DNA of 64,000 bases from Marsupella aquatica (taxonomy: Eukaryota; Plantae; Marchantiophyta), in NCBI GenBank assembly GCA_973895155.1, contig OZ316893.1, positions 15,592,645-15,656,644 of the forward strand, read 5' to 3'. This document shows, piece by piece, positions 383 to 49,985 of this stretch (position 1 is its first letter; each line of letters begins with the position of its first letter). The notes beneath the pieces are model-generated. The model made no database searches. It saw only the letters and a list, made by a program, of their open reading frames with translations, and was not told the origin of the DNA. Position numbers and translations under genes: made by a program.

Positions 383-3300
383 TAGATAGATATATGATCA
401 ATTATTGCATGGTGTATATGAGGCTGGGTTGCATATGGACGAATAGGGTACATTTCGAGGCTGCTATATGGTGAATCCACCTTTCAGATTTTGTCTCATT
501 CATATTTTGTGTCAAGTATTTTGATTATAATGTGCCTTAACAAGGTAAATCATTTGTATTAATTTGATTTTTGAATTAACTTTAGGACCCCTCTTAATTT
601 TATTGAACTTAGAGTATTTTGAATGTATTTGGCTCCCCTCATCAAGGTTTAATCTTTTCTTTTCAATCACTCCTTAGTGAATTCTCTTTTTTCTCATGAG
701 AGTGTAAGAAATGAATTTGATCAATCTGAACATCTGGTGTATTAAGTTCCCCTCATGGTTTACTTTGCAAAAGTTATGGTTTTAATTGAGTTGAATGTCA
801 TTACCCAGAAGCAAGTGAAAATCTCTACTGTATGTACACAACTCAACTCTTTAGTACCTTTGTACTTTCTGGGTCATAATATAATTTGATGTGCATATAT
901 TTACGTGTCCCTACTTAAATGAATTACATATCACTAGAAGACAAAAAAAGAGACATGTTCCAGGATGAACATGCTATATGGACGACATGGGTTGGCATGG
1001 GTGCGTGGGTGAGATGATTGAAGGGTGTTGAGTGGGCAGCAGTGGGGGGCAGATCTCCCTGTCTTACACAGGGCTTGAGGCACAATTCAGCAAACAAAGT
1101 GGGGAGGGAGAAGGACGAGGAAGAGAGAGGGGACAAAAACAAGGAAGAAAATAATGAAAGAAGTGGGAGGAAAGAGATCAAAGGGAGAAACAAGTGGACT
1201 TCACAGGAAAAGAAAGGGGAATGTGTGGTGGGAGAGGGGGACGCTGGGTTTCGAGGCCAAGTAGATTGAAGGGAGGCTAGGGTGAAAACAAGTTGTGTTT
1301 GGGTGGGGGGGGGGGAGCGGAACAACTTTTGCGTAGGCAACACTTCCACTAACAAGCTTCTCAACATTTATATCAAAACTGCGAAAGAACAAAAAACTAA
1401 GTCAAACCTGAAGACAAGATGCCAAAGGTGGAAACCCGATAAAGAGGGGAAAGGAAAAAAGAGAGAGACCCAAGAAAACCCAAGAGGCCTCACTAGCCCC
1501 AGAGCACTACCAACCCCAAAAGAAGACAAAAACAACAATTATGGTCGATAACACTTTCCTTTGACAGCAACTATGCTGAACATAGGTTTGTTTTGCCATT
1601 TTTTTGTTCAACAATTTTTATCGTCGACATCTTTTCAGCTCAATATATTTTTGTTCAGTTTTATGCTCAACATTATTTTCACTTTATATTTTGTCTGCTC
1701 GAAAATACTGGGCTAGGCAGGGACAGGCTAGTCAAGATGAATTGAGATTGAAGACCAGGTTTTCTTAGCAACGTAAATAGCATTGATTTTAAAACTGGAA
1801 GAAGAGGTCTGGAGGGGAAATTCATTTTGGAAGACAGGAATGAGCTCGGAAATATATTCAAAACCATCTCAACCAAATTGGAGGGACTCACATTCGATTC
1901 GAATGGTACCCGCTCCTGTCACGAACGAATTGAATGAAGATGTCCGCAGTAATCGGTCCTTTTCTATTAGCGCAGATAGCACAAATTCATAAGAAATTGG
2001 CCTTTTCGTTGGATCTGCTCGGTATCCACGAGAACTGTACGAACTAGCATTAAAAGCCAGTACTCTGCTCTGTATCAGGCTTGTTGGGTGGTGAAATTGG
2101 TAATAACAAAGTTAAGTGTGCAAAGCTCGTAAAGGGACGTTGAGGATCATTTAATATTGATATCCTGCGCTGCCTGGAGAGCTACATTGGGAATCACCGA
2201 TCACTACTATTTGGCGGACTGCGCTGCGGAACAATGCGTCAAAAGTTTCATTGAGATTCGTGTCAACTTGCTCTGCTACAGGCTATTAGAGTCACACAAA
2301 TCTGGCTTATTGAGACTTGCTCTTCCACAAATTGAAAGGAAAGATGGGTCAAGACAAAAAATAATTGGTAACATCTAGCTTCCTGGAATTCAGATACAGC
2401 TTAAATGCAATTGCTCAGTTGGCAACTTCAAATGTGAACTCTGCCTTCGCAAATTTGTGTCCTACAATGCAAGAGGGGCCATCGGGCAGACATATATCAG
2501 GAAATCTGGAATTGTCTACCTACCTATGCCGCCAAAGAATAAAAGAAAAGTCTGTGTTGCTTGGCATGCCTATCTAATTGGTCTGCCTAAGAATGCGTGG
2601 ATTCGGGCTTGACTTCAACTTTGATATGAACTCATCCGCAATTCAGTTACCCTGCAGATGCTCTACATCAAGTCTAAACTATGTACAACTTTCCCATTTT
2701 TTGTGGGCCAAACAAATTGCTAAGCCCATGGTGTATGATAAACATCTAGCTGCTATAGAATTTCCTGTACTGACGTGGCCAGTATGTACAGATGGGTTCC
2801 ACCCGACCCCTTGCTGCATGTACAAACAAATTGAACAGGGATGGATAATTAGATGTCCAGAAGTGCGTTACATCCGATGCCCTCAATGCTGCCTTCCCTC
2901 CCGGCTTCCCTCCACTCTGTGTCAGCCTTGCCCATGAGCAGTCGACCAGTCACGATCCCAGCAAAGCAGGGGTTTTACAGTCTCTGGGTTGCACTGAAAC
3001 AACTTGAATCATGTACATCGCTGATTCAATCAGCTGCTGGGCAGGAGTGCAACTTGAATCACCCAACAAAATCACCGGTAAAATCATTGTTGAGTCGAAC
3101 TGCTGAACTGATCCATGATAGCTCCAATTACCGCTTGTAGCATCATAAAACATACGCCGCAATTGGCTTTGGATGTGATGGGCCTCAGCTTGACCTCCAC
3201 ATAGGACACTGCGACCATTTTGGAGGACCCATAAATTCGCTGCAATTGGCGACGTGGCAGCTTCCATCCATGGTAAAGTTGTGGAAGCTGGGTACTCCAA

Positions 3301-3433
3301 TCACTTGTTACAGCCCATCACAACAAGCTTGATCGAGAGACCACCGGCACTGCCTGCTCACGTGGATGTCCTGTACCCTCAGCCCAGTAATGTAACTTGA
3401 ATCTTATGAATGCAATTAAACCTGCTACAAATT

Positions 3434-3523
3434 CTATGAATCTCCATCGTCATTGTTGTCATCGGCTGATAACCAGGTTGGTGGTGGTGATCCAGGATAG
3501 CCAAATGTCTCATTAGGATCCAT
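3434..3523 (-). CDS. small ORF A3, 29 aa MDPNETFGYPGSPPPTWLSADDNNDDGDS
   Basis: Manual translation ATG 3523 to TAG 3434. Paralog at 21906-22001 keeps the frame through a 6-nt indel and a TAG/TAA stop change. Confidence 0.7.
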   Translation of the reverse strand: MDPNETFGYPGSPPPTWLSADDNNDDGDS

Positions 3524-3618
3524 TCTAAAGCTGCACTGCTCGCGGACAGTGAACGAAATCCTCTGCTTCTTTGCTGAATTGAGGGTGACTCCCGGTGACA
3601 TAAAATAACCCGAAGTGT

Positions 3619-3702
3619 CTATCGACGGCCAGCATTATCCTGGCCAACCAACCACGGTGGTGATGTGGTGTTCGGATATCCGAATTGCTCATTGGGATCC
3701 AT
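3619..3702 (-). CDS. small ORF A2, 27 aa MDPNEQFGYPNTTSPPWLVGQDNAGRR
   Basis: ATG 3702 to TAG 3619; corresponds to the C-terminal part of track ORF 3619..3843. Same motif as its neighbours. Confidence 0.65.
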   Translation of the reverse strand: MDPNEQFGYPNTTSPPWLVGQDNAGRR

Positions 3703-3832
3703 TAGTAACCCACCAAATCGGAATTTGGGCACGAGGACTACACCTTTCTGTGTGTTTGTATGCTGGCAGGATCGTTGATGGCTGACTTCACTGTGAATGA
3801 TGTCGAAGTCAAGAAAGCCGAGCTCTGGCTCC

Positions 3833-3916
3833 CTACTGATCACCGTCGTCAGATGAACAGGACAACCACGGTGGTATGCTAGTACCGGTGTATCCGAATT
3901 GCTCGCTGGGATCCAT
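3833..3916 (-). CDS. small ORF A1, 27 aa MDPSEQFGYTGTSIPPWLSCSSDDGDQ
   Basis: ATG 3916 to TAG 3833; paralog at 22304-22384. Confidence 0.7.
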   Translation of the reverse strand: MDPSEQFGYTGTSIPPWLSCSSDDGDQ

Positions 3917-4229
3917 TGACAAAAACTTTCTGGTGAATTGCGTGCAGGGATATGTAGTAGCTAAGTGAATGCAGATTCAGAGTCGTGAGCCTACAGCTGA
4001 GCCGTTGCTCACTATGAAATCCAATGCTGAATGAATCGATTGCAGATGGTGAATAATCACAAAGCCACTAAGATTCCGACAATCTTACTCCCCGAATCCC
4101 AGTCGAAACGAAAGGATGCGAGTGCACGATTCACTCTTAGAAAAGTCCCAAACTAGAAATCTTAGTGTCGAAGACACGATGAGAATTGAAGGCAGACGGT
4201 CTCGAGAGGAAGATATCCGACGCAACGAC

Positions 4230-4305
4230 TTCACAGCTGAACGAGAGAGCGAGAGATGAAAATGAGAATGATTCCAGAGGAGAGCACGGGGTTTATTTTA
4301 TGCTT
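4230..4305 (-). promoter_or_regulatory. putative core promoter / CT-rich leader start of cassette A
   Basis: Minus strand GCATAAAATAAA TATA-like box (~4303-4292) followed by pyrimidine-rich TCTCTCGCTCTCTC. An equivalent GCATAAAAGAAA lies at ~22666-22654 in copy B. Confidence 0.4.
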
Positions 4306-13692: not shown

Positions 13693-14113
13693 TGTTGGGT
13701 ATTTACTCTTACGTCTAGGTTAGGTATGACGTGGTTGGTACAACAACGTGGGTTGGTACAACTATGTGGTTAGGTACAACTACGTGATTAGGTACAACTA
13801 TGTGGTTAGGTACAACTACGTGATTAGGTACAACTATGTGGTTAGGTACAACTAAGTTGCACACTATATCATAAGAGGCATGTGTGCTTGGAGAGGAAGG
13901 ACCAAGGCTCATTGTTATGGAGCCACTTGAGAGATAGGGAGAGCTTACACTGTGGAGACTCGGTATAGCCGACGGGCTTAGAGTTCAGTAAAGCTCTCTT
14001 GTGTGTTCCCGTGGACGTAGCCTCAAGGAGGTGAACCACGTATCTCTTGTGTCGACTATTGTGCGTTGGATGGTTCATGGGCTTGCCGTTGCGATCGTCG
14101 TCTATGCTCAACA
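13693..14113 (+). repeat. 5' LTR (421 bp; seven 18-bp GGTACAAC units)
   Basis: Starts tgttgggtattt, ends ctatgctcaaca; matches the 3' LTR apart from repeat number. Confidence 0.95.
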
Positions 14114-14115
14114 AT

Positions 14116-14127
14116 TGGTATCAGAGC
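14116..14127 (+). promoter_or_regulatory. primer binding site (tRNA-iMet)
   Basis: TGGTATCAGAGC 2 nt after the 5' LTR, the canonical plant iMet PBS. Confidence 0.93.
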
Positions 14128-14647
14128 ATGCTTGGGAGGTGACGTGTGTTCGTGACGGGATTTCATTATGGTTTTTCCAGCGTTGAGTGTCGGTGGATTT
14201 CCCGGAGTTCCGTCGCATGGAACTTGGAGTTTATGGGCTCAACGGATAGATCGGGGCAAGAGCTTTCTAACGGTGTGAAGAAATCGCTGAACGGAGCTCG
14301 TGGTGCAGAGAGATCTAAGTTTTCGTCGTTCTGGATTTTGTGAAGAAAGTTGGCAATCGACTCGGAGGGAGAAGCGTCAAGTGTTTTGACTCAACGGAGA
14401 GATTGAGGCAAGACGATTGTTTTGAGTCCGGGATTGGCTCTTTGATGCAAAGAGGAAGGCTAAGCAAAATCAATTACCTTGTTGGATTGGTGACGGCACC
14501 AAGTGCAATTGATCAACATTCGTTATTGACAAGGGGCAGAGAGAGGAGCAGGAGGAAGAGCACGTGACACCGATACCATTACCGGTGCGGCGTGTGGTGG
14601 AGGAAGCAGTACTACTACCGGAGCTCACGGTAGTGCCAAAGAAGAAG

Positions 14648-15505
14648 ATGGGGACTTTCAAGCTTGGGGGACCCAAGTATGAAGTGACAAAGTATGATGG
14701 GCGCTCTGACTACTTGCTATGGGAGAAGCAGGTGAAGGGAGTGCTCTATGCGTCAGGGATGGGCCAACTGCTGAGCACTCGTGAAGACGATGTTGATGAG
14801 AAACAATGGGACCGCATGCAGGAGCAGGGAGTGTGGTGTGTTACACTCTATCTCATGCCTCCCATCATCAAGCAGTTGGGTGCACATAAGGATTGCATGT
14901 CCTTGTTTGCGGAATTGCAGAGCAAGTATCACCGCAAGGAGTTGTCAAACCGGCTCTACACTTCCTACAAACTCATGAGTTTCAGGATGAAGGAATCCGG
15001 CACAAAGTTGCAAGACCATGTGGATGCTTTCAACGACATGGTCGTTGACTTGGAAAACTTTGGGGAGACTTTGAATGATGAGACGAAGGCTCTGCAGCTT
15101 CTTAGTTCATTGCCTCCATCTTACCAGTCCCTATCACGAGTGTTGTTGCATCGTGATAGGGATACCATTTCATATAATGACGTGGTAAGTTCTCTGCTTA
15201 GTGATGATCTTCAGCAGAAGATGCACATCACATCACAGCCTTCATTATCTGGTGCTGCCCTCAATGTTAACCGTGGGAGGGGTATGTAGCGACCAACTGG
15301 GGACCGTAGAACCCAGTTTAGATCTAAATCCAGATCTAAGTCCAAGGGTAAATCCCCTCAGAGGAGGCAGGTGACATGTTGGAAGTGCAACCAAGTTGGA
15401 CACTTCAAGCGAGACTGTAAGGGAAAGGCAGCGGAAACTTCATCGGCAAATGTGGCTAGGGCTGATGGAGAAGCTGATTTACTCAATGATGAGTATGTTT
15501 TATGA
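14648..15505 (+). pseudogene. gag: copia gag (UBN2-like region + CCHC zinc knuckle), in-frame TAG at 15287-15289
   Basis: KYDGRSDYLLW...LLSSLPPSY; the frame continues past the TAG to CWKCNQVGHFKRDC, then reaches TGA at 15503-15505. Confidence 0.88.
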
Positions 15506-18500
15506 AGTCGGGGGTATGCCCTGTGCACGTCATCTAGGAGAGCAGATGATGTGTGGATTCTTGATTGTGCTTGCTCTTTTCATATTTGTTACATTCGTGA
15601 GTTTTTCAGTTCTTACTCTATTTCAAACGGTTCAGTTCTGATGGGAAATGATCACTCCTGTCAAATTGAGGGAATTGGGTCTGTGAAGATTCAAATGTTT
15701 GATGGCGCTGTGCGCACAGTGTCCGGAGTCAGGTATGTACCTGGCATGCGTAAGAATCTGATTTCACTCGGTGTGTTGGATTCAAATGGTCATCAATGGA
15801 GCGTTATTGATGGTGAACTTCAAGTCAGGTCGGGAGAGACAGTGATTTTGAAGGGGAGTAGACAAAAGAATTTGTATGTGTTACAGGGCAATACTGTATG
15901 TGGAGAGGCCAATGTAACCAAGTCTCACGAGGAGATGACTCAACTGTGGCATTCACGGCTAGGCCACATGAGTGAGAAGGGTTTGGCTATCTTACGGAAG
16001 AATGGACTCATTTCTGATTTGCAATCTTGTAAATTAGAGTTTTGTGAGCATTGCATTCTTGGAAAGCAGCATCGTCGTGCTTTTGGTGTTGGAACTCATC
16101 GTTCCAAAGCGGTTCTTGAGTACATACATAGTGACGTGTGGGGTCCATCCCCGACTCCCTCACACTCTGGAAAGTTGTACTATGTATCATTTATTGATGA
16201 TTACTCAAGATTTGTGTGGATTTATTTCATGACGCATAAGTCTGATGTCTTGTCCATTTTTAAGAAGTGGAAGGCCCAAGTGGAGAATCAGACTGGAAAC
16301 ACGATCAAGTGTTTGGATACAATGGTGAAGAGTTTGAGGTCAGACAACGGCGGGGAGTACACTTCAATGGAATTTGAAGAGTACTGTTCAGAACAGGGGA
16401 TAACTCGCCATCTCACCACAGTTTATACTCCGCAGCAGAATGGTGTCGCTGAGAGGCTCAATCGGACACTATTGGAGCGGTCACGGAGTATGTTGAGCCA
16501 ATCAGGTTTACCACAAGAATTTTGGGCAGAAGCTATCAATACCGCAGCTTATTTGGTAAATCTTTCTCCTTCTAGTGCTATCAATTTCAAAATGCCGTTT
16601 GAGATGCGCTATAAGCGGCAAGCAGACTATCATGGCTTGGTAGTTTTTGGAAGTGATGCATATGCTCTCACACCGAAGCAGAATAGGACCAAGTTGGATC
16701 CTACCTCCAAGAAATGTGTTTTTCTTGGGTACCAGAGTGGTGTGAAAGCCTATAGGCTCTGGGATCCTATTGCCTGTAAGCTCGTTGTCAGTAGGGATGT
16801 TTCCTTCAATGAATCCAGATTATTGAAGGAGGGGGAGAATACTCAGGTCTCCCGTACTGACAAAGGAAAATCTCCTATCCCGGATCTCATTGAGGGGGAG
16901 ATTGGTTATGAGGTGCATGACCGAAGAGAAGGAGTTACTCCAATTATGGAGCTGGTTCCTGTGCCAGAGGAACCAGAGGAGTTTGTTGATGCTGGTGAGC
17001 AGCAAGTGGATGTTGTTGAGCTTCAAATTGTACCAGCACACGCAGATCAACCGAAGTCATCGGCTAGAAGAACATCTGGTCGCACTGTACGTGCTCCACC
17101 AAGGTATGGACAGTGGGTTGATTCATCTCAACTGCAAGAAAATGATTTTGCAACTGATGATGAGGGTGATGCGTTAATTTTGGAAGAAGGGGAACCTTCT
17201 TCATTTCATGAGGCAAGTGCTTCAAAGGAGAAGCAGAAGTGGACTGCAGCAATGCAAACGGAGATGCAGTCACTAAAGGACAACAAAACTTGGGAGCTTG
17301 TTAAGCTGCCTAAGGGTCAGCAAGTGGTGGACAGCAAGTGGATTTACAAGCTGAAGGATAATTCCATAGGAGGTGGATCGAAGGTCTACAAGGCTAGGTT
17401 GGTAGCAAAGGGATTCACACAAGAGAAAGGTGTGGATTACAATGAGGTCTTCTCACCAGTTGCTAAGTACTCTACAATACGACTATTGTGTGTACTTGTT
17501 GTAATGTTTGGTCTGCTGCTAGATCAGATGGATGTTGTCACAGCTTTCCTCTATGGCACATTGGAAGAGGTGATCTTCATGAGACAACCGCTAGGTTTTG
17601 TGAAGAGAGGACAGGAGGAATTGGTTTGCAGATTGCTGAAATCCTTGTATGGTTGAAGCAGTCACCAAGACAGTGGAACAAGCGGTTTGACGATTGGATT
17701 CGGTCACAAGGTTTTCACAGAAGTGTATTTGACCCTTGTGTGTATTTGAAATCGGTAAAGAATATTGTATTTGGGTTCATTGTTTTAATACTTTATGTGG
17801 ATGATATGCTAATTGCAGCCAAGGATAGGTCTGAGATTGTTAAGCTCAAGGTACTGCTTAGTGCAGAGTTTAAGATGAAGGACTTAGGGCCAGCTAAGAG
17901 GATTTTGGGTATGGAGATCACTAGGGACTTGGAGGCTGGCAAGCTATGGTTGACGCAGAGCAGTTATGCGAGGAAGGTAATTGCAAGATTCAACATGGGG
18001 AATAGCAAGCCAGTAAGTACCCCGTTGGCTCCACACTTCAAGTTATCATCAGCGTTCTGTCCTACGGATGACACAGAGAAGGGGTTGATGTCAAAGGTTC
18101 CGTATGACAAGGCAGTGGGGAGTCTCATGTATTTGATGACTTGCACTAGACCTGATCTTGCCATGGCTATGGGCAAGGTGAGCAGGTACATGTCGAATCC
18201 AGGGAAGGTACACTGGGAAGCAGTGAAGTGGATTATCAGGTACTTGAAGGGTACTGTGGATCATGGTCTTTTATTTGATGCGAATGCAAAGAATGCTAAA
18301 TCATTGATTGGCTATGTTGATTCTGACTATGGACAAGATTTGGACCGAAGGAGATCAACAACAGGATACATGTTCACACTTGGCGGTGGATGCATAAGTT
18401 GGAGGTCTACTTTGCAGAAGTGTATTGCTCAGTCTACTACAGAAGCGGAGTATGTTGCAGCTGCGGAAGCAGCAAAGGAAGCGATTTGGTTGGATAGACT

Positions 18501-18777
18501 TATCACTGAAATGGGATTGCCACAGGGGAATGTGAAGCTCCATTGTGATAGTCAAAGTGCGCTCCACCTTGCTGTGAACCAGGTGATGGACAGCAGAGTG
18601 AAGCACATTGACGTTAGGTACCATTTTATCAGGCAGGCTGTGTCTGATAATTTGTTTGAGCTAGTCAAGATTGATGGTAAACTCAACCCGGCTGACGCAT
18701 TTACCAAAGTGATTCCTTTGGAGAGTTTCTCTAGACACCGTGACGTATTGCAGGTTTTGCAATTGCATCACAAGTAG
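15506..18777 (+). pseudogene. pol: copia pol (protease, integrase, RT, RNase H) with 1-nt frameshift near 17651-17656
   Basis: WILDCACSFH (PR), HSRLGH/CEHC, HSDVWGP, LRSDNGGEY, NGVAER (IN), YKARLVAKG, LYG/LKQSPR split by the frameshift, YVDDMLI (RT), GYVDSDY and KHIDVRYHFIR (RNase H). Confidence 0.95.
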
Positions 18778-18949
18778 AGTTTTCTTAACATTCATTGTAA
18801 TTACTGATATATGCTCTTCCTCATTCCTATGTATTAGGCTACGGCTTAGTTCTGGTTTGCTCTAGTTAGAGAGGGAAACCGGTTTGGTTTTTGTCCAGAA
18901 CTTCCCGCTGAGGGATCATATACATTGGCAGTATTACTCTCCCCTAGAC

Positions 18950-18967
18950 CAGAGTCAAGGGGAAGAT
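18950..18967 (+). promoter_or_regulatory. polypurine tract
   Basis: Purine-rich agagtcaaggggaagat immediately before the 3' LTR. Confidence 0.75.
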
Positions 18968-19352
18968 TGTTGGGTATTTACTCTTACGTCTAGGTTAGGT
19001 ATGACGTGGTTGGTACAACAACGTGGGTTGGTACAACTATGTGGTTAGGTACAACTACGTGATTAGGTACAACTATGTGGTTAGGTACAACTAAGTTGCA
19101 CACTATATCATAAGAGGCATGTGTGCTTGGAGAGGAAGGACCAAGGCTCATTGTTATGGAGCCACTTGAGAGATAGGGAGAGCTTACACTGTGGAGACTC
19201 GGTATAGCCGACGGGCTTAGAGTTCAGTAAAGCTCTCTTGTGTGTTCCCGTGGACGTAGCCTCAAGGAGGTGAACCACGTATCTCTTGTGTCGACTATTG
19301 TGCGTTGGATGGTTCATGGGCTTGCCGTTGCGATCGTCGTCTATGCTCAACA
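18968..19352 (+). repeat. 3' LTR (385 bp; five 18-bp units)
   Basis: Matches the 5' LTR minus 36 bp; followed by the AACAA TSD. Confidence 0.95.
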
Positions 19353-21905
19353 AACAATAGGGTCTTTTAGATACAATTTTGAGACTTACAAGGGCATTAG
19401 GTCTTTTCACTCACTTTATAGCAGTTAACAAATTCTAGAATACATATTCTTACATTTTAGAGTGTTTGAGGCCTAAAAACTTACTATTGTAGCATCTGTT
19501 TTCCCTCTATAAGGGGAAAACAAGATAAAAACATATGATTTTTAAAACTCCAGATGAATTGGGAGTGAAGACAAAGTTTTCATTGATTTTAAAAATGGAA
19601 GAAGCGATGGTCTTGGAGGAATACAAAGTTTTATTGGGAGGAAGGAAAACTAAATTTGGAAGCTGACCACGTGCAAGATTTGGTTGGATTTTTTTTATTA
19701 AAGACCATCAAATCAATCAAAGTGGAGGGACTGATATATTTGATTGGAATGGTACCTTCAACTTCAAGGCAAGGAATTGAACGAAAACAAGTCAACAGTA
19801 ATAGATCCTTTTATACAAAGTTAGTATAAGAACTGAGAGTTGACGCTATCCAGGATTCATTCAGCATCATAGATGCTTTTCCCTGCCCAACTTGCTTTCA
19901 TGTCCGAGTAGAGTCATGGCAAACTAAATTTGTCGTAAGCACTTTTTGGATTTGGAATTTTTGTCCCCAACTATTAAGATTACTAACCTTCGCTAGAGAT
20001 TTACTTGAGCCATGCCTTGTCAAGCTCGCTTTCTGAATCTCTGCCAGCTTGTTCTTAATAGTTGGGGACAAAAAAGGGAGCTTGACAAGTCATCCTTTTC
20101 TAGAGTGCGATCCCATTCAGCCACTAATTTAAGGTGGATGGCCTTTCTTTACTATAGGAAACTTTTGGCTGTCATTTGAGCACTGATACGCCAGAATGTA
20201 CATGGTAGGTGGTGAACCCCAATGAGTAGTGGCTGATGATCTCTATACTGGTTTTTGTGGCCAAAGTTTAGACCACCTGAAGAGGGGTCTAAACTTTTGT
20301 CTGCTCAGATTTTGGATTGCATTGCTTGCATTAGTCACATTGGCCCTCCGTTCAGCTTAGGCCTGGAAGCTCACATAAATGTCCACTTGTTTTGGTCTAG
20401 AAGCTTCCAAAATTCTAGTGAGTTTTACTAGGAGGAGCGGACATTTATGTAAAACCCCACTAAAATTTTGGCCCTTTCGTTGGATTTGCTCGGTATCCAC
20501 GATAATTGTACGCTTCAGTGAAATTGGTAACATTGGTACAGTCCGTGTGCAGAGCTCGTAAAGTGACGCTGAGGATCATTATTTTGATATAATATCCTGA
20601 ACTGCCCGAAGAGCTACATTGTGAATCACCGATCAGAATTCGTTGAATGTTGCTCTGCTACGCGCAGAGTTACACAAATGAGTCTCATTGACACTTGCTC
20701 TTCAATCCATAAATTGAAAGCAAAGATGGCTCACGACAACCAAAACTTGGTAACATCTACCTTCCTGGAATTTAGATACAGATTATGTAAGTGCTGAGTT
20801 TGCAACTTCAAACGTGAACTCTGCCTTCGCAAAAATGTGTCTTAAAAGAGAAGCAAGGACATCGGGCAGGTATATCGCAGAAAACGGAACTCTGAAATAG
20901 TCTACCTAACTATGACAGGAATAATGATCCGCCAAAGAATGAAAGAGAAGCATGTGTTGCTTCGCATGCCTATCCAATTGGTCTGCCCTAAGCTAATGAT
21001 GGTCTGTCCGAGAATGCCAGGAATTGCTAGTATGTGCAGCTTGCAATTCGTATCTGTGACTGATTTGCACCCTCATTCTGGCTGGATACAACTTCAACTT
21101 TGATACATACTCATCCGCGATTCAACTATCTTGCAGATGCTATACATTAAGTCTAAGCTAAGCGCACTTTCGCACTTGATTTGTGGGCCAAATGCTAACC
21201 GATGTTGTATGATAAACATCTACAGTAGCTGCCGAGGAAATTCCAACACTGATGTGGCTGCTAGGTACAGATGGGGTTCCACCGCACCCCTTGCTGCATG
21301 TACAAACAAATTGAACATGGATGGATAGTTAGATGTCGGAAGTGCGTTACTTCCGATGCCCTCAGTGCTGTCGCCCCTACACTCTGTGTCAGCTTTGCCC
21401 ATGAGCAGCCGACCTGTCACGATCCAAGCAAAGCAGGGGTTTTACAGTCTCTGGGTTGCACCGAAACAACTTGAATCATGTACATCACTGATTGAACCGG
21501 CTACTGGGCAGACGTGGAAGCTGAAGCACCCAACAAAGGCACCGGTACAATCATTCAATTTGTTGAGTCGAATAGGTGAACTGATCCAGGCTGAAGCGTT
21601 GATAGCTCCAATTACCGCTTGTAGAATCGACCTTTCGCAACAGTTGCAGCATGTGGTCGGCCTCAGCTTGGCCTCCACACAGAACACTACGAACATTTGG
21701 AGGACCCATAAATGCGCTGCAATTGGCGACGTAGCAGCTTCCATCCACGCTGAAGTTGTTGAAGCTGGGTACCTCAATCGGTTGTTACAGCCCATCACAA
21801 CAGCTTGAGAGACCACCGGCACTGCCTGCTTACGCGGATGTCCTGTATCGCCGGCCCAGTAATGTTACTTGAACCTCATGAATGTCAACAAGCCTGCTCC
21901 AAATT

Positions 21906-22001
21906 TTATGAATCCTCATCGTCATTGTCGTCATCGTCATCGACCGATAACCAGGTTGGTGGTGGTGATGCAGGATAGCCAAATGTCTCATTAGGATCCA
22001 T
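21906..22001 (-). CDS. small ORF B3, 31 aa MDPNETFGYPASPPPTWLSVDDDDDNDDEDS
   Basis: ATG 22001 to TAA 21906; paralog of A3. Confidence 0.7.
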   Translation of the reverse strand: MDPNETFGYPASPPPTWLSVDDDDDNDDEDS

Positions 22002-22099
22002 TTAAAAGCTCTGATGAAACTGCTCGCCCACTCTGTCAATTCGACAGTGAACGAAATCTTCTCTATCAATCTGCCTCTTTGCTTGTAAGTTGAGGATGA

Positions 22100-22213
22100 C
22101 TAAATTCCCGTTGACATAAACCCGAGGTGTCTATTGACGGCCAGCATTGTCCTGGCCAACCAACCATGGTGTGATGTGGTGTTCGGGAATCCGAACTGCT
22201 CATTGGGATCCAT
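22100..22213 (-). CDS. small ORF B2, 37 aa MDPNEQFGFPNTTSHHGWLARTMLAVNRHLGFMSTGI (1-nt deletion relative to A2)
   Basis: ATG 22213; ACATCACACCATGG versus ACATCACCACCGTGG in A2. The ancestral stop would be at 22131-22133. Confidence 0.5.
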   Translation of the reverse strand: MDPNEQFGFPNTTSHHGWLARTMLAVNRHLGFMSTGI

Positions 22214-22303
22214 TAGTAACCCTCCAAATCAGAATTCGTGCACGATGACTCCTCCTTGATCGCTGACTTCGGTGTGAATGATGTTGACGTCAAGAAAGCC
22301 AAG

Positions 22304-22384
22304 CTAGGCTTCCTCGTCAGATGAACAAGACAACCACGGTGGACTGTCGGTATTGGTGTATCCGAATTTCTCGCTGGGATCCAT
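22304..22384 (-). CDS. small ORF B1, 26 aa MDPSEKFGYTNTDSPPWLSCSSDEEA
   Basis: ATG 22384 to TAG 22304; paralog of A1. Confidence 0.7.
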   Translation of the reverse strand: MDPSEKFGYTNTDSPPWLSCSSDEEA

Positions 22385-22975
22385 TCACCAAAACTCTCGG
22401 AAATATTTCGTGAGCCTACTGCTTGAGCCCTCTCTCACGATGAATGCATGAATCACAAGCCACTCAGATTCACTGCTCGAGTGCCAATCGAACGGAAAGG
22501 ATGCCAACGCACGGTTGACTTGTGAGAAGTAATGTCAAATTAGCGATCATGTGGAGCACACTATGAGAGAAGAAGATATGGGATGCAAAAACTTCACAGC
22601 TAAAGTGTGAGAGAGACGACGAAGACTAGAATGCATTCAGTGGAGAGCAGTGGGTTTCTTTTATGCACTCCTCTGGCGATCGAGTACTCCCCAAACATTG
22701 GTTCGACTTCACTCTCGACGTCACTCGCTGAAGCTGTTGTGTCCGGCTGGCGGTTTTCCTCAGATTAGTCACTGGAAAGTCGGGCAGGGCCGGGCGAACT
22801 TCAGAGGAGGTCCAAAATTCGACTCCAGATCGGTAAACTTTCATCAGTCCCAGTGGAAAACCCGGGAATCTTTACCCATGTGGATCATTCTAGTTGCTCA
22901 TGATACTTTATCAAAATGCCATGTCACCGCCGTAATAAGGTCGGACGGACTGTTCCGTTCAGGGCACTGAATCAT

Positions 22976-23561
22976 GAGGGGTCTCAAACTTACATTTATT
23001 TATTCCCCATTGGCACCCCGTATTTCCCTGGAGCGGGCCGCCCAGATGAGTTGATCGGCCCACGAATTCGGTGACCTGAAGTTTTATCCTGAGCTTTTTA
23101 GTGACCCGGTCGTCCGCTCTGTTCGCTGTGTTTGCTATATACCGGCCTCCACTTCCGTCTGGAGGCAAAGTTCAAAACCCATGTTTTGGGACACCCGATT
23201 TTGGGTCGTGGTGTTCATTGTCAGGTGGGGGCCGGAGAAATCCAGGAGACTAGAGTTTTTTTAGTGGTGAAAATTAGCCAGATTACACCTACTCCACCTC
23301 CCCAAAAAGCTTTCGCCCACTTTTGATGAAAATTGGCTATTGTAGTTTTATCTGTCTCATTAGCCGGTGCCTCACCTAATCACAGGCCAGTTAGCCAGAT
23401 CTAACAATCACCCTTAAATCAGATGAGATCTGACGGTCAGTAAACGAGTCCAATAAAATCAGATAAAGAAGATTTTGTGCATCTTGTCCTTCACGGAGTC
23501 GACATTCGCTACTCTGGGGAGAAAGTGTAAACCTTATTAACGGGGCTGGTTGAGACGGCCT
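22976..23561. mobile_element. ~585 bp MITE-like insertion upstream of cassette B
   Basis: Copy A reads gaatcat|attcggg contiguously (~4577-4590); here that junction is split by sequence with imperfect TIRs gaggggtctcaaac / gttgagacggcct. Confidence 0.6.
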
Positions 23562-23994: not shown

Positions 23995-24759
23995 GAACTT
24001 AAAGTCCTCATGGACACACAGGTTTGCTAGGATTTACCCTGATGGACACAACCATGTGACATTGTAAGAAGAATTTCCAATGACAACTAACAAACAGATC
24101 ACCCGTCTTTAATTAACGGAAGGAAACCTTACTTTAGACATTCAAAGAGACGAGTCCCTGGAACAGGATTAACTCTACCTCGGGAACCCTCCATGGAGTC
24201 CAAGAAATTTAAATAAAATGTCAGCTACTGTCAAAAGATTGCCTCCAGGGAGTCCAAGAAATTTAAACAAACTCTCCCACAAACAGATGCAAAGGGAAAA
24301 AGGCACTACACAAGAGGGGATAAGAAAGTTGAATTAAGTTAAGTCTCTAATTGAGAGGGAGCCAGGTCAGTAGTGTGTAAGGTGATGGCCTGAAAACTAA
24401 AGAGATGGGTGCAAAAAGGGGGGAACTCAGGGTGCTCCTTCCGGTAGGCTGTGAGGGAGTCCCGAGGTACAGTTAATGTTGTTCCAGGGACTCGTCTCTT
24501 TGAATCTTTAGACCTTATGGTTGAGTTAGTCGGTCACCGCATCCTTGCACGGAGGAAAAAATGGACAGAATACAGGAAGAATCAACCGAATACTGACTGG
24601 TCCCAGTCACATACCTCCTTACAGGTCACTTTGGGATTACAACCAAAAAGTGTGTTACAAGAGTAAAAAATGAAATCCAGTTTGTGTCCATCGGGTTGTG
24701 TGTGTCCATTCAATCAGGCTTTCTTCCAAACATGTGTGTCCATGGGGGCTTTAAGTTCA
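23995..24759. mobile_element. Mutator-type (MULE) MITE, ~765 bp
   Basis: TIRs gaacttaaagtcctcatggacacacaggtttg / caaacatgtgtgtccatgggggctttaagttc; 9-bp TSD GTATCTCAA at 23986-23994 and 24760-24768. Confidence 0.85.
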
Positions 24760-26006: not shown

Positions 26007-26795
26007 GGACAATATGTGTCCTTGTCCGACACGACAAATGATAATTTGTCCGCCCAAAAATGATAATTTGTCCGCCCAAAAATGCTCTATTTGTCCAATA
26101 TTCCCTTATCTTCCCCGGCCGAGACCAAAAAATTCCTGGCCCACACCCGGCCTGGTCAAAAACTTTCCCGGCCCGGTCCTAAAATCTCCCGGCCAAGTCC
26201 CGGACGCCCCCGGTTAAGTGAGCCGGCCCCTGGTTTAGGGTCGGGGCCGGGGGTTAGGGGGTCGGGGCTGCAGTGGGGCACGGGGTCAGGGCAGGGGGGT
26301 AAGGGGAGGTCAGGGGGACGGGGCCGGGGCGGACCGGGGAGGGCCGGGAGGGGGAGGTTGGGGAGGGGGAGGTTCGAAGGTTGGGGTAGGGGAGGTCGGG
26401 GGGGGGGTCGGGGAGGACCGGGCGAGGGGCAGGATTGGGGCGGGGAGCAGGGCCGTGGGGGAGTGGAGGTCCGGGGGGAGACGGCCGGACCGGGATGGGA
26501 GGCGGGGTCGGGCCGGGGAGCAAGGCCGGGGGGGGAGGGGAGGTCCGGGGGGAGACAGCCGGGCCGGGGAGGACCGGGATGGGAGAGAGGGGGGGCCGGG
26601 TAGGGCAGCGGGGCCAGTGGGAGGGGGAGGTCCGGGTGGACGTGGCCGGGCTGGGGAGGACCAGGCCGGGGTTTGGGGGAGGGGTCCCGACCCGCCTCTA
26701 TTTTCTCCCGGCCCAACCCTCTCACCTGGCCGGGATTGGCCGGGATCGACTGGGACGACATATGTCATTTGTCGTCCCAAATCCTCCTATTTGTC
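26007..26795. repeat. extremely G-rich low-complexity insertion, probably a non-autonomous DNA element
   Basis: Dense G-runs (ggggagggaggtccggggggagac repeats); imperfect inverted ends ggacaa...acgacaaatga / tcatttgtcgt...ttgtcc; absent from duplication copy A. Confidence 0.55.
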
Positions 26796-41443: not shown

Positions 41444-42103
41444 TCAAATCCAAGATATGTGGCTCCTAGCAGGAGTGCCTAGTGTAGGGTCAATGTCATG
41501 GTCAGGACAGTAAAACATCCCCTTCTTGGGCTGCCCATGCGCTGAGTGATCCCAAATTGTTCGATCATGGGCAAATCCCCTCTGCTGGATAAACAGCAAG
41601 CAGTCCTTGTGCCATGCCTTAGGACACCTCATGCACTGAACCAAAAAGCCATTAGCCCCATCATTGGGCCCCTGTCCACAAGTAAGACAAATATGGAGTC
41701 CACATGATGTTGTGCTAGGAACCAAACACTGCCGACAGTAAAACCGGGCACAGAGAGGGTTTGGACATTTTCTTACCTCTTCACCAATTTTTCCAGACAC
41801 ATGACACTTAAAGCAAGAATGTTCATCATTCTTGCAATCAACACAAAGCCATTCTCCAACATGGCCATCAGCCAGGGATATAGTTGGGCATAGCCATTGC
41901 TGACCCAAAGGACAGGAAACATTCTTATGGAAATGTCGGTGGCAAGGCCCATCACAAACAATGAGATCCCCTCCCTCATCACAAATCGCACATACATGTG
42001 GACTATTCTGGTTAATCTCAATGTCTGAATATAAGGACAATTGAGGTGCTTGAGAGGATTCACCTCTGCAACGATTCATGGCCTTCTGCTTATTGCGAGC
42101 CAT
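41444..42103 (-). CDS. CACTA cargo: stand-alone EDM2-like multi-PHD zinc-finger protein (219 aa) with H3-tail-like N-terminus
   Basis: accATGG start at 42103 just after a tgcag acceptor. CAICDEGGDLIVCDGPCHRHFH...WLCVDC..HSCFKC...CARFYC...CGLHICLTC...QCMRCPKAWHKDCL...WD...FYCPDHDIDPTLGTPARSHI parallels, from recall, the PHD cluster and following YCxxHEID..L.TPxRxH motif of plant EDM2. Confidence 0.85.
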   Translation of the reverse strand: MARNKQKAMNRCRGESSQAPQLSLYSDIEINQNSPHVCAICDEGGDLIVCDGPCHRHFHKNVSCPLGQQWLCPTISLADGHVGEWLCVDCKNDEHSCFKCHVSGKIGEEVRKCPNPLCARFYCRQCLVPSTTSCGLHICLTCGQGPNDGANGFLVQCMRCPKAWHKDCLLFIQQRGFAHDRTIWDHSAHGQPKKGMFYCPDHDIDPTLGTPARSHISWI

Positions 42104-45100
42104 GGTCCTGCACACTCAGACCTACATCAGATTGTGAAACACGAAGGAATAACAGGGTGCAGCATGACACAAAGGAATGAGGGTGCAGCATAAAATATGA
42201 CATGTAACCACAAGGGTGCAGCATAAACCAATGCTTTATGGATGGCAAAGCATTTAGGGCTGAGCAGAGCCCTAACCTTGGCCTATGATTGGAAGCAATC
42301 ACAAATATTGCAACCTGTATGCCTTCGCTTGCTGTACAGCAGTGCTCGATCACTCACCCTGCCTTTTTAAAATCTGTAAGGGCAACACAGAACAAATAGC
42401 AATTGAGTTTCAGCAAAGCATTCATTTGGCTCTCAGGTTTTAAAATGGACAAACAAACACAACGATGTGCACAACAAAGCACAGAGAGCAACAAAACTCC
42501 AGCAAACTGGGACTCAGGCAAGAGACACGAATTTTAGCAGCAAAATCAAATCAAGATAATTCGGACCTGTAAGTTCAACATGCAGTGCTCACTCACCCTG
42601 CCCTTTTTTAAATCTGTAAAAACCAAGTTTTATTGCGTGCCTTCTACATCTTAAGCTGCTGCACACATCTGTTACAGAACCATAAGTTGCTTTACTCTCA
42701 ACAAGCTAGCTGCTGGTCCACCCACTTTTTCAAACTGCTGGTCCACCCACTTTTTCAAAAGCTGCACCGTACTCTATCTTCGTGCAGTCGTGGCATTACC
42801 GGGCTGCTGTCAGAGACCCTTACAAAGAATTTAAAATTGACCAAGCTGATTTTAGTTTAGTTTCGTCTAGTTTGCAGACCAAAGGAAATAATGTGGCTGT
42901 ATTCATGGAGTTGTATTCATTGCTGTGTATGGATGTTGTGTGAACGTCAGACAGTTAGCTGTAAATTACCATAGTTGAAGAGCAAGGCTTGTACAAAAGC
43001 CACTGAGGAATTCTCTGAGGTGGCACAGCAGTTGGCAAACCATACACAAAACTCTGAAACTTTTTGGCAACAGAATTCTACAGAGTCGTTGCCGGAATCC
43101 AGTGAGGATTCACCATACATGCCTGCACTTCTCTTCAATAAAAAAAAGAGAAAAGAAAAGGGCTATGATACAGAGGGATGTCAAAAGAAGAGTAAGGAAA
43201 CCAATTGATTGAGGAACACAGACAGACTAAGGAAAACATCATACAATGGAAAAATAAGGACTACATTGTAATAATAAGAGATCAAGCTCACCTTGCACCA
43301 CAGAGATTGTCACGAGTCACCTCGCAGTTCCTCGCAGCTTAGGTCCAGGATGACATTTCAATATGGAGGAAAGGAGTTTACTCATTTAAAATAGAGAAGG
43401 AGTGGCATCTACAGGGACTTTGGGAGCACACTCAAAAGGTTCGCGATACATCAGGTTATCTTTCTAGGTCAGACACTGCCAATAGAATTTTGAACACAAC
43501 AAACACAACAAACACTGCCAGATATAGAATTTTGAACACAAGGGTACGGCATCCAGATTTGCCTAAACTCAATCAACTTAATAGCATATTTTTATGTTCA
43601 ATTAGGCAGCACTAAATAGAACAGCCTTTCACGCAGTCAGAATAATTGGCAATAATTGCCAGACGACAACAAGACAACAAACTGAGCTGAACATAGCAGA
43701 CAAAACAAACTGCACTCAATAGTAGACTAATACGGCAAGTAGCAATCAGAAATCAACAGCAGACAGACAGAGGACAACTCGGTCAAAACTCGGGCACTTG
43801 ATTTAGTTGTGGTAAATAGGAGAAAGCTAAGAAACAGAGAGAGAAAAAACCATTTCTTAGCAATTGGATCTGTCTGCGATCTCCGCTGCCTGATTACAAT
43901 CAAGAAGATTTTGCCAAAACAAACGATAAAGCTGAGGTGGAGTCATTCAAAGCCCAAGTCTTGATACTTCGTCAGAAGCATGATCAGTGGAGCGCTCAGC
44001 TACGGAGGCATGGGGTTTTGGAGGACGAAAGGCTTTCGCGGGCAGTGCAGGCAGCCGTTCAGGTTTGGGAAGATTTTGCCAAAACAAACAATAAAGCTTG
44101 AAGATAGTTAAATTTCTTAGGTCTCTGATAGTTAATGGAAGGTCGCAGTGGAGCCAGCATGGGACAGGGAAGGAAATGCAGGCACTTGTGATGCAATAGG
44201 CTACAGAGGGCGAGAAGGTGGACAACCAATTGAAACTCAACAAACTCAAAGAACATGTAGCGAATGGCAATAGAATAGAAGATCAGAGAATATGTAGCAA
44301 ATGGAGAGGGATAGATAGAGAAAAAACATAAGCAGAGAGCTCTGGCACACAGCAACACAGGTCCCAACACAGCACATTGCAAGTCCCAGGCTGGGGTGGA
44401 GCCGGAAGTGGAGAGCACAGAGCAACCAGGCAAATCACAACATGGGCGCCAATGGGAATAAGGTCATACCTCTTTGCAGCTCTTGACCGACCAACAGCTC
44501 CTCACCGACCAGCGCTGCTGCAACTCCTCCCTGATGTAACCTCTTGCAGCTCCCGTAGCTCCTCCCGCAGCTCCGAAGCTCCTCCCGCAGCTCTGCAACT
44601 CCTCCAACAGCTCCGCAGCTCCCGATGTAATACCTCCCGTAGCTGCCACAGCTCCTTCACGAACAGTGAGACTAGTTGCTGTCACTGCCTCCGATCCACG
44701 AGCTTCCACTGTTTTTGCCTTCCACAATGATAGGGGTCCCCAACGCGCGAATGCCTTCCCTTCCCTCCTGCAACTCAAACATGTGCTCGGAAGAGTGTCA
44801 AAACTCCTCCCCTCCCGCAACTCCAACCTGTGCTCCTGCAGGTCTAAATGGTGAGACCAACGCGCGAATGCCTTCCCTTCCCTCCCGCAACTCCAATCTG
44901 TGCTCCCGGGGCAAATGTGCTCGGAAGAGTGTCGCAGCTCATCCCCTCCCGCAAATCCCACCTATGCTCCCAGGGCAAATGTGCTCGCCTTCGTTCCCTG
45001 CGCTTGGTGGAATGGAGCACAAAGCTGCGCAGCCCTAAGCCCTTGCAATGTGCACACAAAGGCATGCCAAGACATAAGCACATATCGCGTTGCCCTCTCG

Positions 45101-46139
45101 ATGTTTGTTGAGGAAAAAGGGCTCCTGTTGGTACGCAAGACCACTTGAGCGGGATAAACCTAATTGCTGGACCCCTAAACCCCGTAAAGGTAAGGTATTT
45201 TGTTGGATGGGGATGGTGGATATTGTGGGTCATTAATTAGGGTTATTTTTTGAGACTAGTTAATAACAATGTAACAAAACCCCCCCATAAGGCCCATAGA
45301 TAATACCAACTAAATAAGTTAATAACAAGGTCGGGACGCCCCCATAAGGCCCTAGGGAAGGCACTGAAGGTAAATAGCTCATAATGTCGCGACACCCCCA
45401 TAAGGTCATGGCTGTTTGTGTAGGTGCCCATAACCCGCCCCTCATTTAAACCTCCTTAATGGGAGGTGAGGGTGTTGTGGATTACATTAGTGTAATTAAC
45501 TATGTACCGGCCATGTTTTTTGGGTGATAGGTTATGTCTGCAAAAAGGACCATATGCATGAACACAATTTTGGACTACCTTATTAGTCTCACCATGACTA
45601 TATGACCTCCAATATGCCAACATTAATGGCTTCCAAGATGACAGCGTGAGTGACCCCACTTTTAGTCATTCATATTGAAGCACTATTTAATTCACAAATG
45701 ACCCAATGAACTCCCTTGTACCTCCAAAGAGAACCCCCCAATAGCCTTTGTAAGGACCACATTTCCAATCATTTGGAACTTCTTACCTGTAGTATGACAA
45801 CCAAAATGACCCTAATTTGAGGTGTTTTCATTAATGACACACCATGAGGGACCTGTCTAATGACCACAAATATGACTATAAAAATGACCCTATATGTAGT
45901 CATTGGCATTAATGACACACCATTATGTGAAAATGACCCAATGAAGAGTACATTACCTCTCGGAGTGCCCCCTTACAATTCATTTGGAATTTAATAGAAT
46001 ATATCCAAATCCAAATATCGGCACAAACATGACATAGTTATATAGAAGGACATAGTCTTCCACTAGTATTGCATTATATATCTCTTGGAGAGACAAAAAC
46101 AATTTTTGTTTGCCGTTTGGATAGGACAGTATGCATGCA

Positions 46140-49100: not shown

Positions 49101-49200
49101 GGTGCATCACGCCTTAAGTAAATGCAAGACATGTGTTCAAATTGCTAATGCCGCAACCAGTGGGAGGACAATGATGAGTATTGTGTCCCGCATTTAGTGG
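46140..49200. repeat. ~578 bp tandem array (5 full units plus a partial one) inside the CACTA right arm
   Basis: ttggcaaatcactccaaag recurs at ~46155, 46740, 47313, 47894, 48472 and 49050. The central units are near-identical, hence the repeated MDNDEY ORFs. Confidence 0.93.
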
Positions 49201-49299
49201 AAGGGTTATCAACTATATCAATGACTCTACAATTATGATCGATGTATGGAATAACTACTGAGTATTTTAATCTTCATATCTCTTGGGTTCTTTAATGAC

Positions 49300-49985
49300 T
49301 CTATAAGTAGTCATTTATGCAATAAGTCCATAATGACTGTATGTTATTGTAAACATTGATATATCATGATTTTTAGATTGACCCTATATTTAGTCATTTA
49401 TGCGACAAGTCCATAATGAGAGTATGTTGTTGTCAACACTGATATATCCTAGTTTCAGTATTGACTATGGAGTTAGTCATTTATGAGAGAAGTCCATATT
49501 AATGACAGTATGTTCTTGTAAATACTGATATGTCCTAATTTCAAGATTGACCCTAGAGTTAGTCATTTATGAAAGAAGTCCATAATGACGGTATGCTATT
49601 GTAAACACTGATATGTCCTAATTTCAAGATTGACCCTAGAGTTAGTCATTTATGAAAGAAGTCCATAATGACGGTATGCTATTGTAAACACTGATATGTC
49701 CTAATTTCAAGATTGACCCTAGAGTTAGTCATTTATGAAAGAAGTCCATAATGACGGTATGCTATTGTAAACACTGATATGTCCTAATTTCAAGATTGAC
49801 CCTAGAGTTAGTCATTTATGAAAGAAGTCCATAATGACGGTATGCTATTGTAAACACTGATATGTCCTAATTTCAAGATTGACCCTAGAGTTAGTCATTT
49901 ATGAAAGAAGTCCATAATGACAGTATGCTATTATAAACACTGATATATTCTCATTTTCAGATTGACCCTATGTTTTGTCATTTAA
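49300..49985. repeat. 83-bp tandem array (about 8 units, central ones identical)
   Basis: cataatgac at 49581, 49664, 49747, 49830 and 49913 (period 83); degenerate flanking units. Confidence 0.93.

What the first reader, a model, noticed from the sequence alone, without database searches (positions are those of the whole stretch)
21906..22384. Second copy of the three-sORF cassette shows frame-preserving divergence
Seen: the paralogous cassette encodes B1 MDPSEKFGYTNTDSPPWLSCSSDEEA and B3 MDPNETFGYPASPPPTWLSVDDDDDNDDEDS. Substitutions fall in the variable positions (6, 10-14 and the tail) while M-D-P, E, F-G-Y, P and W-L are retained. B3 has a 6-nt insertion in the Asp tail and a TAG-to-TAA stop swap, while the flanking spacers carry large indels (B1-B2 spacer 90 nt versus 130 nt). 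Inference: purifying selection on the peptides after duplication, which is the best internal evidence that they are translated.
Basis: partly seen in the sequence, partly recalled or inferred. Interest (0 to 1): 0.75.

Follow-up and report, generated by a model that had tools for sequence, protein, structure and literature searches.

The report
Duplicated three-peptide micro-gene, one broken peptide
A probably plant genome holds two neighbouring copies of an unannotated stretch with three tiny related reading frames whose key amino acids are kept while silent letters change, so it is likely a real gene making several short peptides from one predicted RNA; in this second copy the middle frame is broken.

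Summary
B1 and B3 are as described, but the title is only partly right. Contigs of 3 of 4 public runs carry the deletion; X3 does not. Of three indels touching the ORFs, one is a triplet. Coding selection is better supported elsewhere. The three units resemble each other only over codons 1-18. A codon-aware model beats a frame-blind one (p=3e-4). A third genomic copy has three silent and no replacement changes in codons 1-9. Copy A has an ATG-free 374-nt leader. Best reading: a tarsal-less-like polycistronic small-ORF gene for acidic, unsecreted MDPxExFGY-x5-PxWL peptides, with A intact and B partly decaying. Main rival: orbitide-type precursors with a Gly8-Pro15 core. No RNA run was listed, no homologue was found, and the lineage is undetermined.

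The parts
22304..22384 (-). B1 sORF, 26 aa, intact, net charge -5
22100..22213 (-). B2 sORF, frameshifted by a 1-nt deletion at codon 15 (about 22171); 37 aa; also Tyr9 to Phe
   Evidence: deletion in contigs of X1, X2, X4 and not of X3
21906..22001 (-). B3 sORF, 31 aa, intact, net charge -11
22385..22665 (-). Putative core promoter and leader of copy B: CATAAAA at 22665, then a CT-rich tract; three upstream ATGs (22636, 22550, 22449)
   Evidence: promoter role inferred
21300..21905 (-). Trailer shared with copy A (13.6% substitutions), likely 3' UTR; no long ORF intact in both copies
21417..21485 (-). 22-codon ORF identical in A (2950-3018) and B with two silent changes; weak candidate fourth sORF
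3833..3916 (-). A1 sORF, 27 aa, intact
3619..3702 (-). A2 sORF, 27 aa, intact
3434..3523 (-). A3 sORF, 29 aa, intact; an in-frame ATG at 3601 could give a 55-aa form
3917..4302 (-). Putative core promoter (CATAAAA at 4302) and ATG-free leader of copy A
   Evidence: 0 ATG in 374 nt, shuffle mean 5.1, P=0.003; promoter role inferred
2800..3433 (-). Trailer of copy A, containing a 105-codon ORF (2950-3267) that is broken in B

Best explanation
The window holds two diverged copies of a three-sORF cassette whose conserved codons change mainly silently; each copy is likely one gene, predicted to be transcribed as a single RNA and translated into three related 26-31-residue peptides that would act unprocessed by binding a partner protein, and in copy B the middle ORF is frameshifted. 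SHOWN: the ORFs, the shared motif MDPxExFGY-x5-PxWL, mostly acidic tails, no hydrophobic signal-like stretch, codon-level constraint, at least three copies of unit 2 per organism, and the B2 frameshift. INFERRED: one transcript from the CATAAAA/CT-rich start; ribosomes reach ORF2 and ORF3 by reinitiation and leaky scanning; the two aromatic anchors at fixed spacing form a docking motif while the linker and tail drift; repeated ORFs and gene copies raise dose and give redundancy, which lets B2 decay. The partner is unknown. I put about 0.8 on coding selection, 0.65 on a polycistronic RNA and 0.45 on the whole statement.
For: (1) Units are alike only over the 54-nt core: in 6 of 6 unit pairs core z is 2.5-20, while the 80-nt flanks give z of -0.9 to 1.6. 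(2) Between-unit differences favour third positions (A1/A3 6,4,11; B1/B3 6,5,12). Permutation p for amino-acid identity is 0.0008-0.03 in 4 of 4 between-unit pairs, against 0.21 and 1.0 for the 2 A-B pairs tested. (3) On five intact cores, a model slowing replacements (omega about 0.1 at about 77% of codons) beats a frame-blind slow class, p=3.4e-4. (4) A-B pN/pS is 0.39, below all 234 overlapping trailer windows (median 0.95, minimum 0.44). (5) A third copy in X1, X3 and X4 aligns without gaps to A2 and has 3 silent and 0 replacement changes in codons 1-9; 8 of its 13 differences were not itemised. (6) Copy A has no ATG in the 374-nt leader (P=0.003), and neither copy has one between the ORF1 and ORF2 starts (P=0.015 and 0.042). 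(7) ORFs under 35 aa and spacers of 90-130 nt fit the reinitiation limits given for tarsal-less (under 35 aa, 40-200 bp; PMC1852585 passages). Weak first starts and ATG depletion mark green-algal bicistronic genes (PMC11291117 passages). (8) No splice fusion uses the same donor and acceptor in both copies.
Against: No transcript or peptide was seen. A single-ratio codon model gives omega 0.43, not significant (p=0.07). A-B divergence in the sORFs is not significantly below spacer or trailer. B2 is frameshifted and the B leader has three ATGs. There are ATGs between the ORF2 and ORF3 starts in both copies (3 in A, 4 in B). The trailer is about as conserved as the sORFs and is unexplained. In X3 the B-type locus appears to share a 65-nt unit-2 core identical to A2, so gene conversion may contribute to the similarity. 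The data are 17-18 codons in five to seven related units, and the frame was chosen by eye. Relatives are known only in two close organisms, so there is no deep conservation. The binding role rests on analogy alone.
Confidence: 0.45

Rival explanations
1. The sORFs are translated but are precursors of cyclic peptides (orbitide-like). Leader MDPxExF would be removed, an 8-9-residue core from Gly8 to Pro15/16 would be cyclised by a prolyl-oligopeptidase-type cyclase, and x-W-L plus the acidic tail would be the follower.
For: Size is near presegetalin A1 (32 aa; PMC6514808 passage). Gly8 and Pro15 are invariant in the five intact units, matching an N-terminal Gly and a final Pro/Ala (PMC11253845 section 3.2; PMC12143145 passages). 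The cores are Gly/Pro-rich and almost uncharged. Codons 10-14 of ORF1 changed at 7 of 15 bases (P=0.002 at the trailer rate). No signal-like stretch. An alternative cut after Glu5 and before Ser19 echoes the Rutaceae P1 Glu and P1' Ser (evolidine preprint).
Against: The follower's C-terminal end is highly conserved in Pseudostellaria precursors, whereas these tails differ in length and sequence. Core hypervariability is seen in 1 of 3 ORF pairs (0/15 and 1/15 in the others). Core length is fixed. Units 1 and 2 have Pro-Pro at the proposed cut, which such enzymes disfavour (recalled). The Rutaceae cut gives cores starting with Gln, Lys or Thr, not small residues. No cyclase or BURP domain was found among 272 frames scanned.
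Confidence: 0.25
2. The units are a non-coding or formerly coding tandem repeat, for example a dead multi-repeat protein gene, kept similar by duplication and gene conversion; no peptide is made today.
For: B2 is frameshifted. Overall A-B divergence does not single out the sORFs. In A, spacer 1 and A2 lie in one stop-free frame of 113 codons (3622-3960), and in B, ORF1, spacer 1 and ORF2 share a frame with two stops. A conversion-like pattern is seen in X3.
Against: Constraint is frame-specific. All six window units keep an ATG at position 1, and the third copy shows no change there. Stops lie at non-homologous places yet keep intact products at 24-31 residues (loose ends, read by hand). The leader of A lacks ATGs. 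No Rfam match and no structure signal shared by both copies.
Confidence: 0.15
3. The three sORFs are regulatory upstream ORFs whose nascent peptides control translation of a downstream ORF in the conserved trailer (the 105-codon ORF of A, or the 22-codon ORF shared by both copies).
For: The trailer is as conserved as the sORFs. The 105-codon ORF has the lowest pN/pS of its six frames (0.59), and the 22-codon ORF has 2 silent and 0 replacement changes.
Against: The 105-codon ORF is broken in B by frameshifts and a stop and has no Pfam match. Many ATGs precede it. The whole trailer shows pN/pS of 0.65-1.04 in six frames.
Confidence: 0.1

Closest known systems
tarsal-less / polished rice / mille-pattes (arthropods; PMC1852585 and PMC11475943 passages; PMC6428570 abstract)
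   Same: Several related sORFs under 35 aa in tandem, spacers within 40-200 nt, a shared short motif, whole-gene duplicates, no long ORF.
   Different: No LDPTGXY motif; the motif spans 18 residues with two aromatic anchors and is followed by an acidic tail; the genome is probably plant; transcript, translation and partner (Ubr3 for Pri) are not shown.
Caryophyllaceae-type orbitide precursors (presegetalin, Pseudostellaria; PMC11253845 section 3.2, PMC12143145 passages)
   Same: About 30 aa, conserved N-terminus, a possible Gly...Pro uncharged core, a multi-copy family.
   Different: The follower end is not conserved, core length is fixed, the precursors are three separate ORFs in one cassette, and no cyclase or product was seen.
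Rutaceae orbitide precursors (proevolidine; bioRxiv 10.1101/2020.06.10.145326, parts 1-2 of 6 read, alignments not visible)
   Same: Glu before and Ser after a Leu-ending segment in 4 of 5 intact units.
   Different: The segment is 13 residues, starts with Gln, Lys or Thr, and is the conserved part rather than the variable part.
ENOD40 and green-algal polycistronic genes (PMC12744755 and PMC11291117 passages)
   Same: More than one ORF on one nuclear RNA in the green lineage; weak first start and ATG depletion before ORF2.
   Different: The passages read do not describe those ORFs as paralogous repeats of one peptide; ENOD40 also needs a structured RNA region, and no shared structure was found here.

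Membership tests
tal/pri/mlpt | LDPTGXY motif | tested here: not met
   Motif is MDPxExFGY-x5-PxWL; LDPTGXY per PMC1852585
tal/pri/mlpt | Tandem related sORFs under 35 aa, 40-200 nt apart | tested here: met
   26-31 aa for the five intact ORFs; spacers 90-130 nt
tal/pri/mlpt | One polycistronic RNA, all ORFs translated | not testable with these tools
   No RNA or ribosome data were available; indirect support from ATG depletion
tal/pri/mlpt | Binds Ubr3 and triggers Shavenbaby processing | not tested
   No partner known; no complex was predicted
Caryophyllaceae-type orbitide precursor | Core begins with Gly and ends with Pro/Ala, 5-16 aa, mostly uncharged | tested here: met
   Gly8...Pro15 in 5 of 5 intact units; the cut sites are my choice; rule
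Caryophyllaceae-type orbitide precursor | Conserved follower C-terminus | tested here: not met
   Tails differ in length and sequence beyond W-L
Caryophyllaceae-type orbitide precursor | Hypervariable core between conserved flanks | tested here: inconclusive
   7/15 bases changed in ORF1, 0/15 in ORF2, 1/15 in ORF3
Caryophyllaceae-type orbitide precursor | Head-to-tail cyclic product made by a PCY1-type cyclase | not testable with these tools
   Needs LC-MS/MS; the genome is not held
Rutaceae orbitide precursor | P1 Glu and P1' Ser | tested here: inconclusive
   Glu5 in 6 of 6 units, Ser19 in 4 of 5 intact units; rule
Rutaceae orbitide precursor | Core starts with Gly, Ser or Ala and is variable; follower conserved | tested here: not met
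   Starts with Gln, Lys or Thr; the segment holds the invariant residues
Burpitide precursor | Fused or adjacent BURP domain | tested here: inconclusive
   No BURP match in 272 of 347 stop-free frames of 60 aa or more; shorter exons and the rest of the genome were not searched
Known structured RNA (Rfam) | Match at gathering score | tested here: not met
   0 matches in the window

The most novel reading that the evidence does not exclude
A plant gene that encodes cyclic-peptide precursors as three separately initiated small ORFs on one polycistronic mRNA, rather than as one multi-core polyprotein, giving a set of Gly-Tyr-x5-Pro macrocycles in a lineage where none are described.
Probability: 0.2. 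Interest if true: 0.85.

Novelty: new variant of a known kind. Interest (0 to 1): 0.58.

Why it matters
Polycistronic genes made only of repeated micro-ORFs are established in arthropods. My nine literature searches showed no plant gene with this motif or layout, though I did not see supplementary sORF catalogues. A plant case would show that the design arose again independently, and gene callers miss such loci. The family offers a natural experiment: an intact copy, a partly decayed copy and a frameshift present in some samples only. If the peptides are cyclised, it would be a new layout for plant peptide natural products.

Tried and rejected
No whole genome is held. No RNA holder was listed; this says nothing about expression. 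Protein searches with the peptide alignment: 0 of 6 near-length candidates and 0 of 895 longer candidates scored E<=10; the search needs exact 5-residue words, so the blank is weak. The HMMER search of protein representatives never ran because the queue was full. Atlas: no usable hit for B3 or the 105-aa ORF; this shows neither absence nor novelty. PDB: 1 hit, E=0.6, chance. Pfam: none of the 3 peptides scanned singly matched. Degenerate motif scan: 1 metagenome match, lying antisense to a 160-aa ORF and lacking the Tyr and Pro anchors, rejected as chance; 0 matches in viral contigs. Rfam 0. Folding: no window with z below -2 in both copies; the lowest was -2.9 in A only, among 42 windows with 25 shuffles each. 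Spliced fusion of the ORFs: no donor-acceptor pair shared by both copies. The two-class model against plain neutrality (p=2e-5) was set aside as confounded by rate variation and replaced. CpG retention near the cassettes (o/e 0.94 and 0.80 against 0.58) was set aside because several 2-kb bins in the gene-free 54-60 kb region reach 0.81-0.95. Lineage: homologues of the PHD ORF carried no names. A motif search of papers listed 31 papers, none evidently on these peptides by title. Earlier scan findings by place, sequence and words gave nothing for this genome or sequence. No structure or complex was predicted: the peptides are about 30 aa and have no known partner.

Full report
Setting. The window is eukaryotic and gene-poor. 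It holds a copia element (14.5-18.8 kb), a CACTA-type transposon with Transposase_21, DUF4218 and DUF4216 (36.9-40.8 kb) and a PHD-finger ORF. That these domains are chiefly plant is recalled; the lineage was not determined. Of 347 stop-free frames of 60 aa or more, 272 outside four transposon or repeat regions were scanned. Only the PHD ORF passed a Pfam cut-off, and one other frame gave a sub-threshold hit. Copies A and B lie in a duplicated segment (A about 1.9-5.2 kb, B about 19.7-27.1 kb), 78% identical over the central 1.3 kb.

Observation. B1, B3, the 6-nt insertion, the stop swap and the 90 versus 130 nt spacer are correct. It has a 1-nt deletion at codon 15, loses the in-frame PPWL, runs to 37 residues, and carries the only replacement at an anchor residue, Tyr9 to Phe. 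ORF1 differs by a 13-nt indel across its stop. So 1 of 3 indels touching the ORFs is a triplet. The deletion stands in contigs of X1, X2 and X4. In X3 a contig with B-type spacer runs through the site without a gap, and none of the B2 changes at 3655, 3677 or 3685 is seen. The frameshift is therefore real and present in 3 of 4 runs; X1 may be the window's own source. Whether the X3 contig is an allele or another paralogue is not resolved.

Substitutions per aligned base are 26/254 in sORFs, 25/181 in spacers, 80/589 in the trailer and 112/392 upstream. The sORFs differ from upstream DNA (p=1e-8) but not from spacers (p=0.29) or trailer (p=0.21). pN/pS over 78 codons is 0.39 (p=0.04), lower than all 234 trailer windows, which overlap heavily. 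Anchors defined from copy A alone have 0 of 60 bases changed in B1 and B3 (P=1.6e-4); B2 was left out of that count and has 2 of 30 changed plus the deletion. The A-B comparison thus gives modest support.

Stronger evidence. The three units resemble one another only over codons 1-18; 80 nt on either side score like shuffles in 6 of 6 pairs. Five anchors use different synonymous codons in different units (Pro3, Phe7, Gly8, Tyr9, Leu18). Permutations keeping substitution types give p=0.0008-0.03 for amino-acid identity in 4 of 4 between-unit pairs; these pairs are not independent. A single-ratio codon model is not significant (omega 0.43, p=0.07). A two-class model in which replacements are slowed beats a frame-blind slow class (p=3.4e-4, about 0.002 after allowing for six frames). 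A third copy of unit 2, outside the window, occurs in X1, X3 and X4. It aligns to A 3645-3734 without gaps; codons 4, 8 and 9 change silently, codon 10 changes Pro to Ser, and 8 of 13 differences are not itemised. Its loose end, read by hand, continues W-L-V with three Asp and stops after residue 24. A further unit-2 end in X3 and X4 also stops after residue 24. Whether these extra copies have units 1 and 3 is unknown.

Gene anatomy (inferred). Both copies have CATAAAA followed by a CT-rich tract, 280-390 nt upstream of ORF1. Copy A has no ATG in 374 nt of leader (shuffle mean 5.1, P=0.003; 3 of 2713 ATG gaps in the window are as long as the 418 nt before A1), and neither copy has an ATG between the ORF1 and ORF2 starts. 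The leader limits were chosen after seeing the data. All six starts have G at +4, and 5 of 6 have a pyrimidine at -3. B has three leader ATGs and a broken ORF2, so A looks like the healthier copy. ATGs do occur between the ORF2 and ORF3 starts; in A the one at 3601 is in frame with A3. The trailer is conserved to about 21300. It holds a 105-codon ORF in A that is broken in B (pN/pS 0.59, significance not tested) and a 22-codon ORF identical in both copies. It remains unexplained.

Mechanism. I favour a polycistronic small-ORF gene whose peptides act unprocessed. The layout fits the limits given for reinitiation in tarsal-less (ORFs under 35 aa, 40-200 bp apart, repeated ORFs, whole-gene duplicates; PMC1852585 passages), and ATG depletion fits leaky scanning as in green algae (PMC11291117 passages). 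Pri peptides work by binding the ligase Ubr3 (PMC11475943 passages). Here two aromatic anchors at fixed spacing, a free linker, an acidic tail and no hydrophobic stretch suggest a cytosolic docking peptide. That step is analogy only. The orbitide reading is a serious rival: Gly8 and Pro15 are invariant and match the Gly...Pro/Ala rule, and ORF1 shows a burst of change in codons 10-14. Against it, the tails are not conserved and the burst is seen in 1 of 3 pairs.

Comparison and novelty. It works like tal/pri in layout but fails the motif test, so it is not a member. It meets some orbitide features and fails the follower test. No homologue was found in the protein, atlas, PDB, Pfam, Rfam, metagenome or viral searches; these tools hold few plant genomes and handle 30-residue queries poorly. 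Papers seen: bioRxiv 10.1101/2020.06.10.145326 (parts 1-2 of 6; figures not held); PMC11253845 (outline; sections 2.1 and 3.6.3.5, first parts of 3.2 and 3.6); PMC6514808, PMC1852585, PMC11291117, PMC11475943, PMC12744755, PMC12143145 (passages); PMC6428570 (abstract). Others were seen as search listings only, and no supplements were read.

Verdict. Observation partly confirmed, interpretation partly supported. This is a real peptide family under coding constraint (about 0.8), probably polycistronic, with no expression evidence and copy B partly decayed. New variant of a known kind; interest 0.58.

Noticed in passing
window 13700-19310: Copia element between the two cassette copies; terminal repeats 99% identical over 300 nt (13773-14072 and 19012-19311), so a recent insertion; pol is split over two ORFs.
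   Followed up: no
window 41444-42115 (-): 223-codon ORF with NSD-like PHD fingers directly upstream of a CACTA transposase on the same strand, in a strongly CpG-depleted block (o/e about 0.2); possibly a chromatin-reader domain carried by the transposon. Three unnamed relatives at 52-82% identity.
   Followed up: partly
window 2950-3267 (-) and 21417-21485 (-): 105-codon ORF in the A trailer, broken in B; its last 22 codons form an ATG-started ORF identical in both copies with two silent changes.
   Followed up: partly
runs X1, X3, X4 laid on window 3606-3745 and 20400-23200: Further copies outside the window: three unit-2 ends in X1 and four in X3 and X4. The third copy in X1 lies on an 8-kb contig, and a joint suggests it also keeps a piece of the trailer (21229-21304).
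   Followed up: partly
window 45700-49200 and 49250-50080: Tandem arrays with units of about 580 nt and 83 nt.
   Followed up: no
window 23995-24758 and 26300-26700: Nested inverted-repeat pairs (MITE-like) and a G-rich repeat, both inserted upstream of copy B relative to copy A.
   Followed up: no
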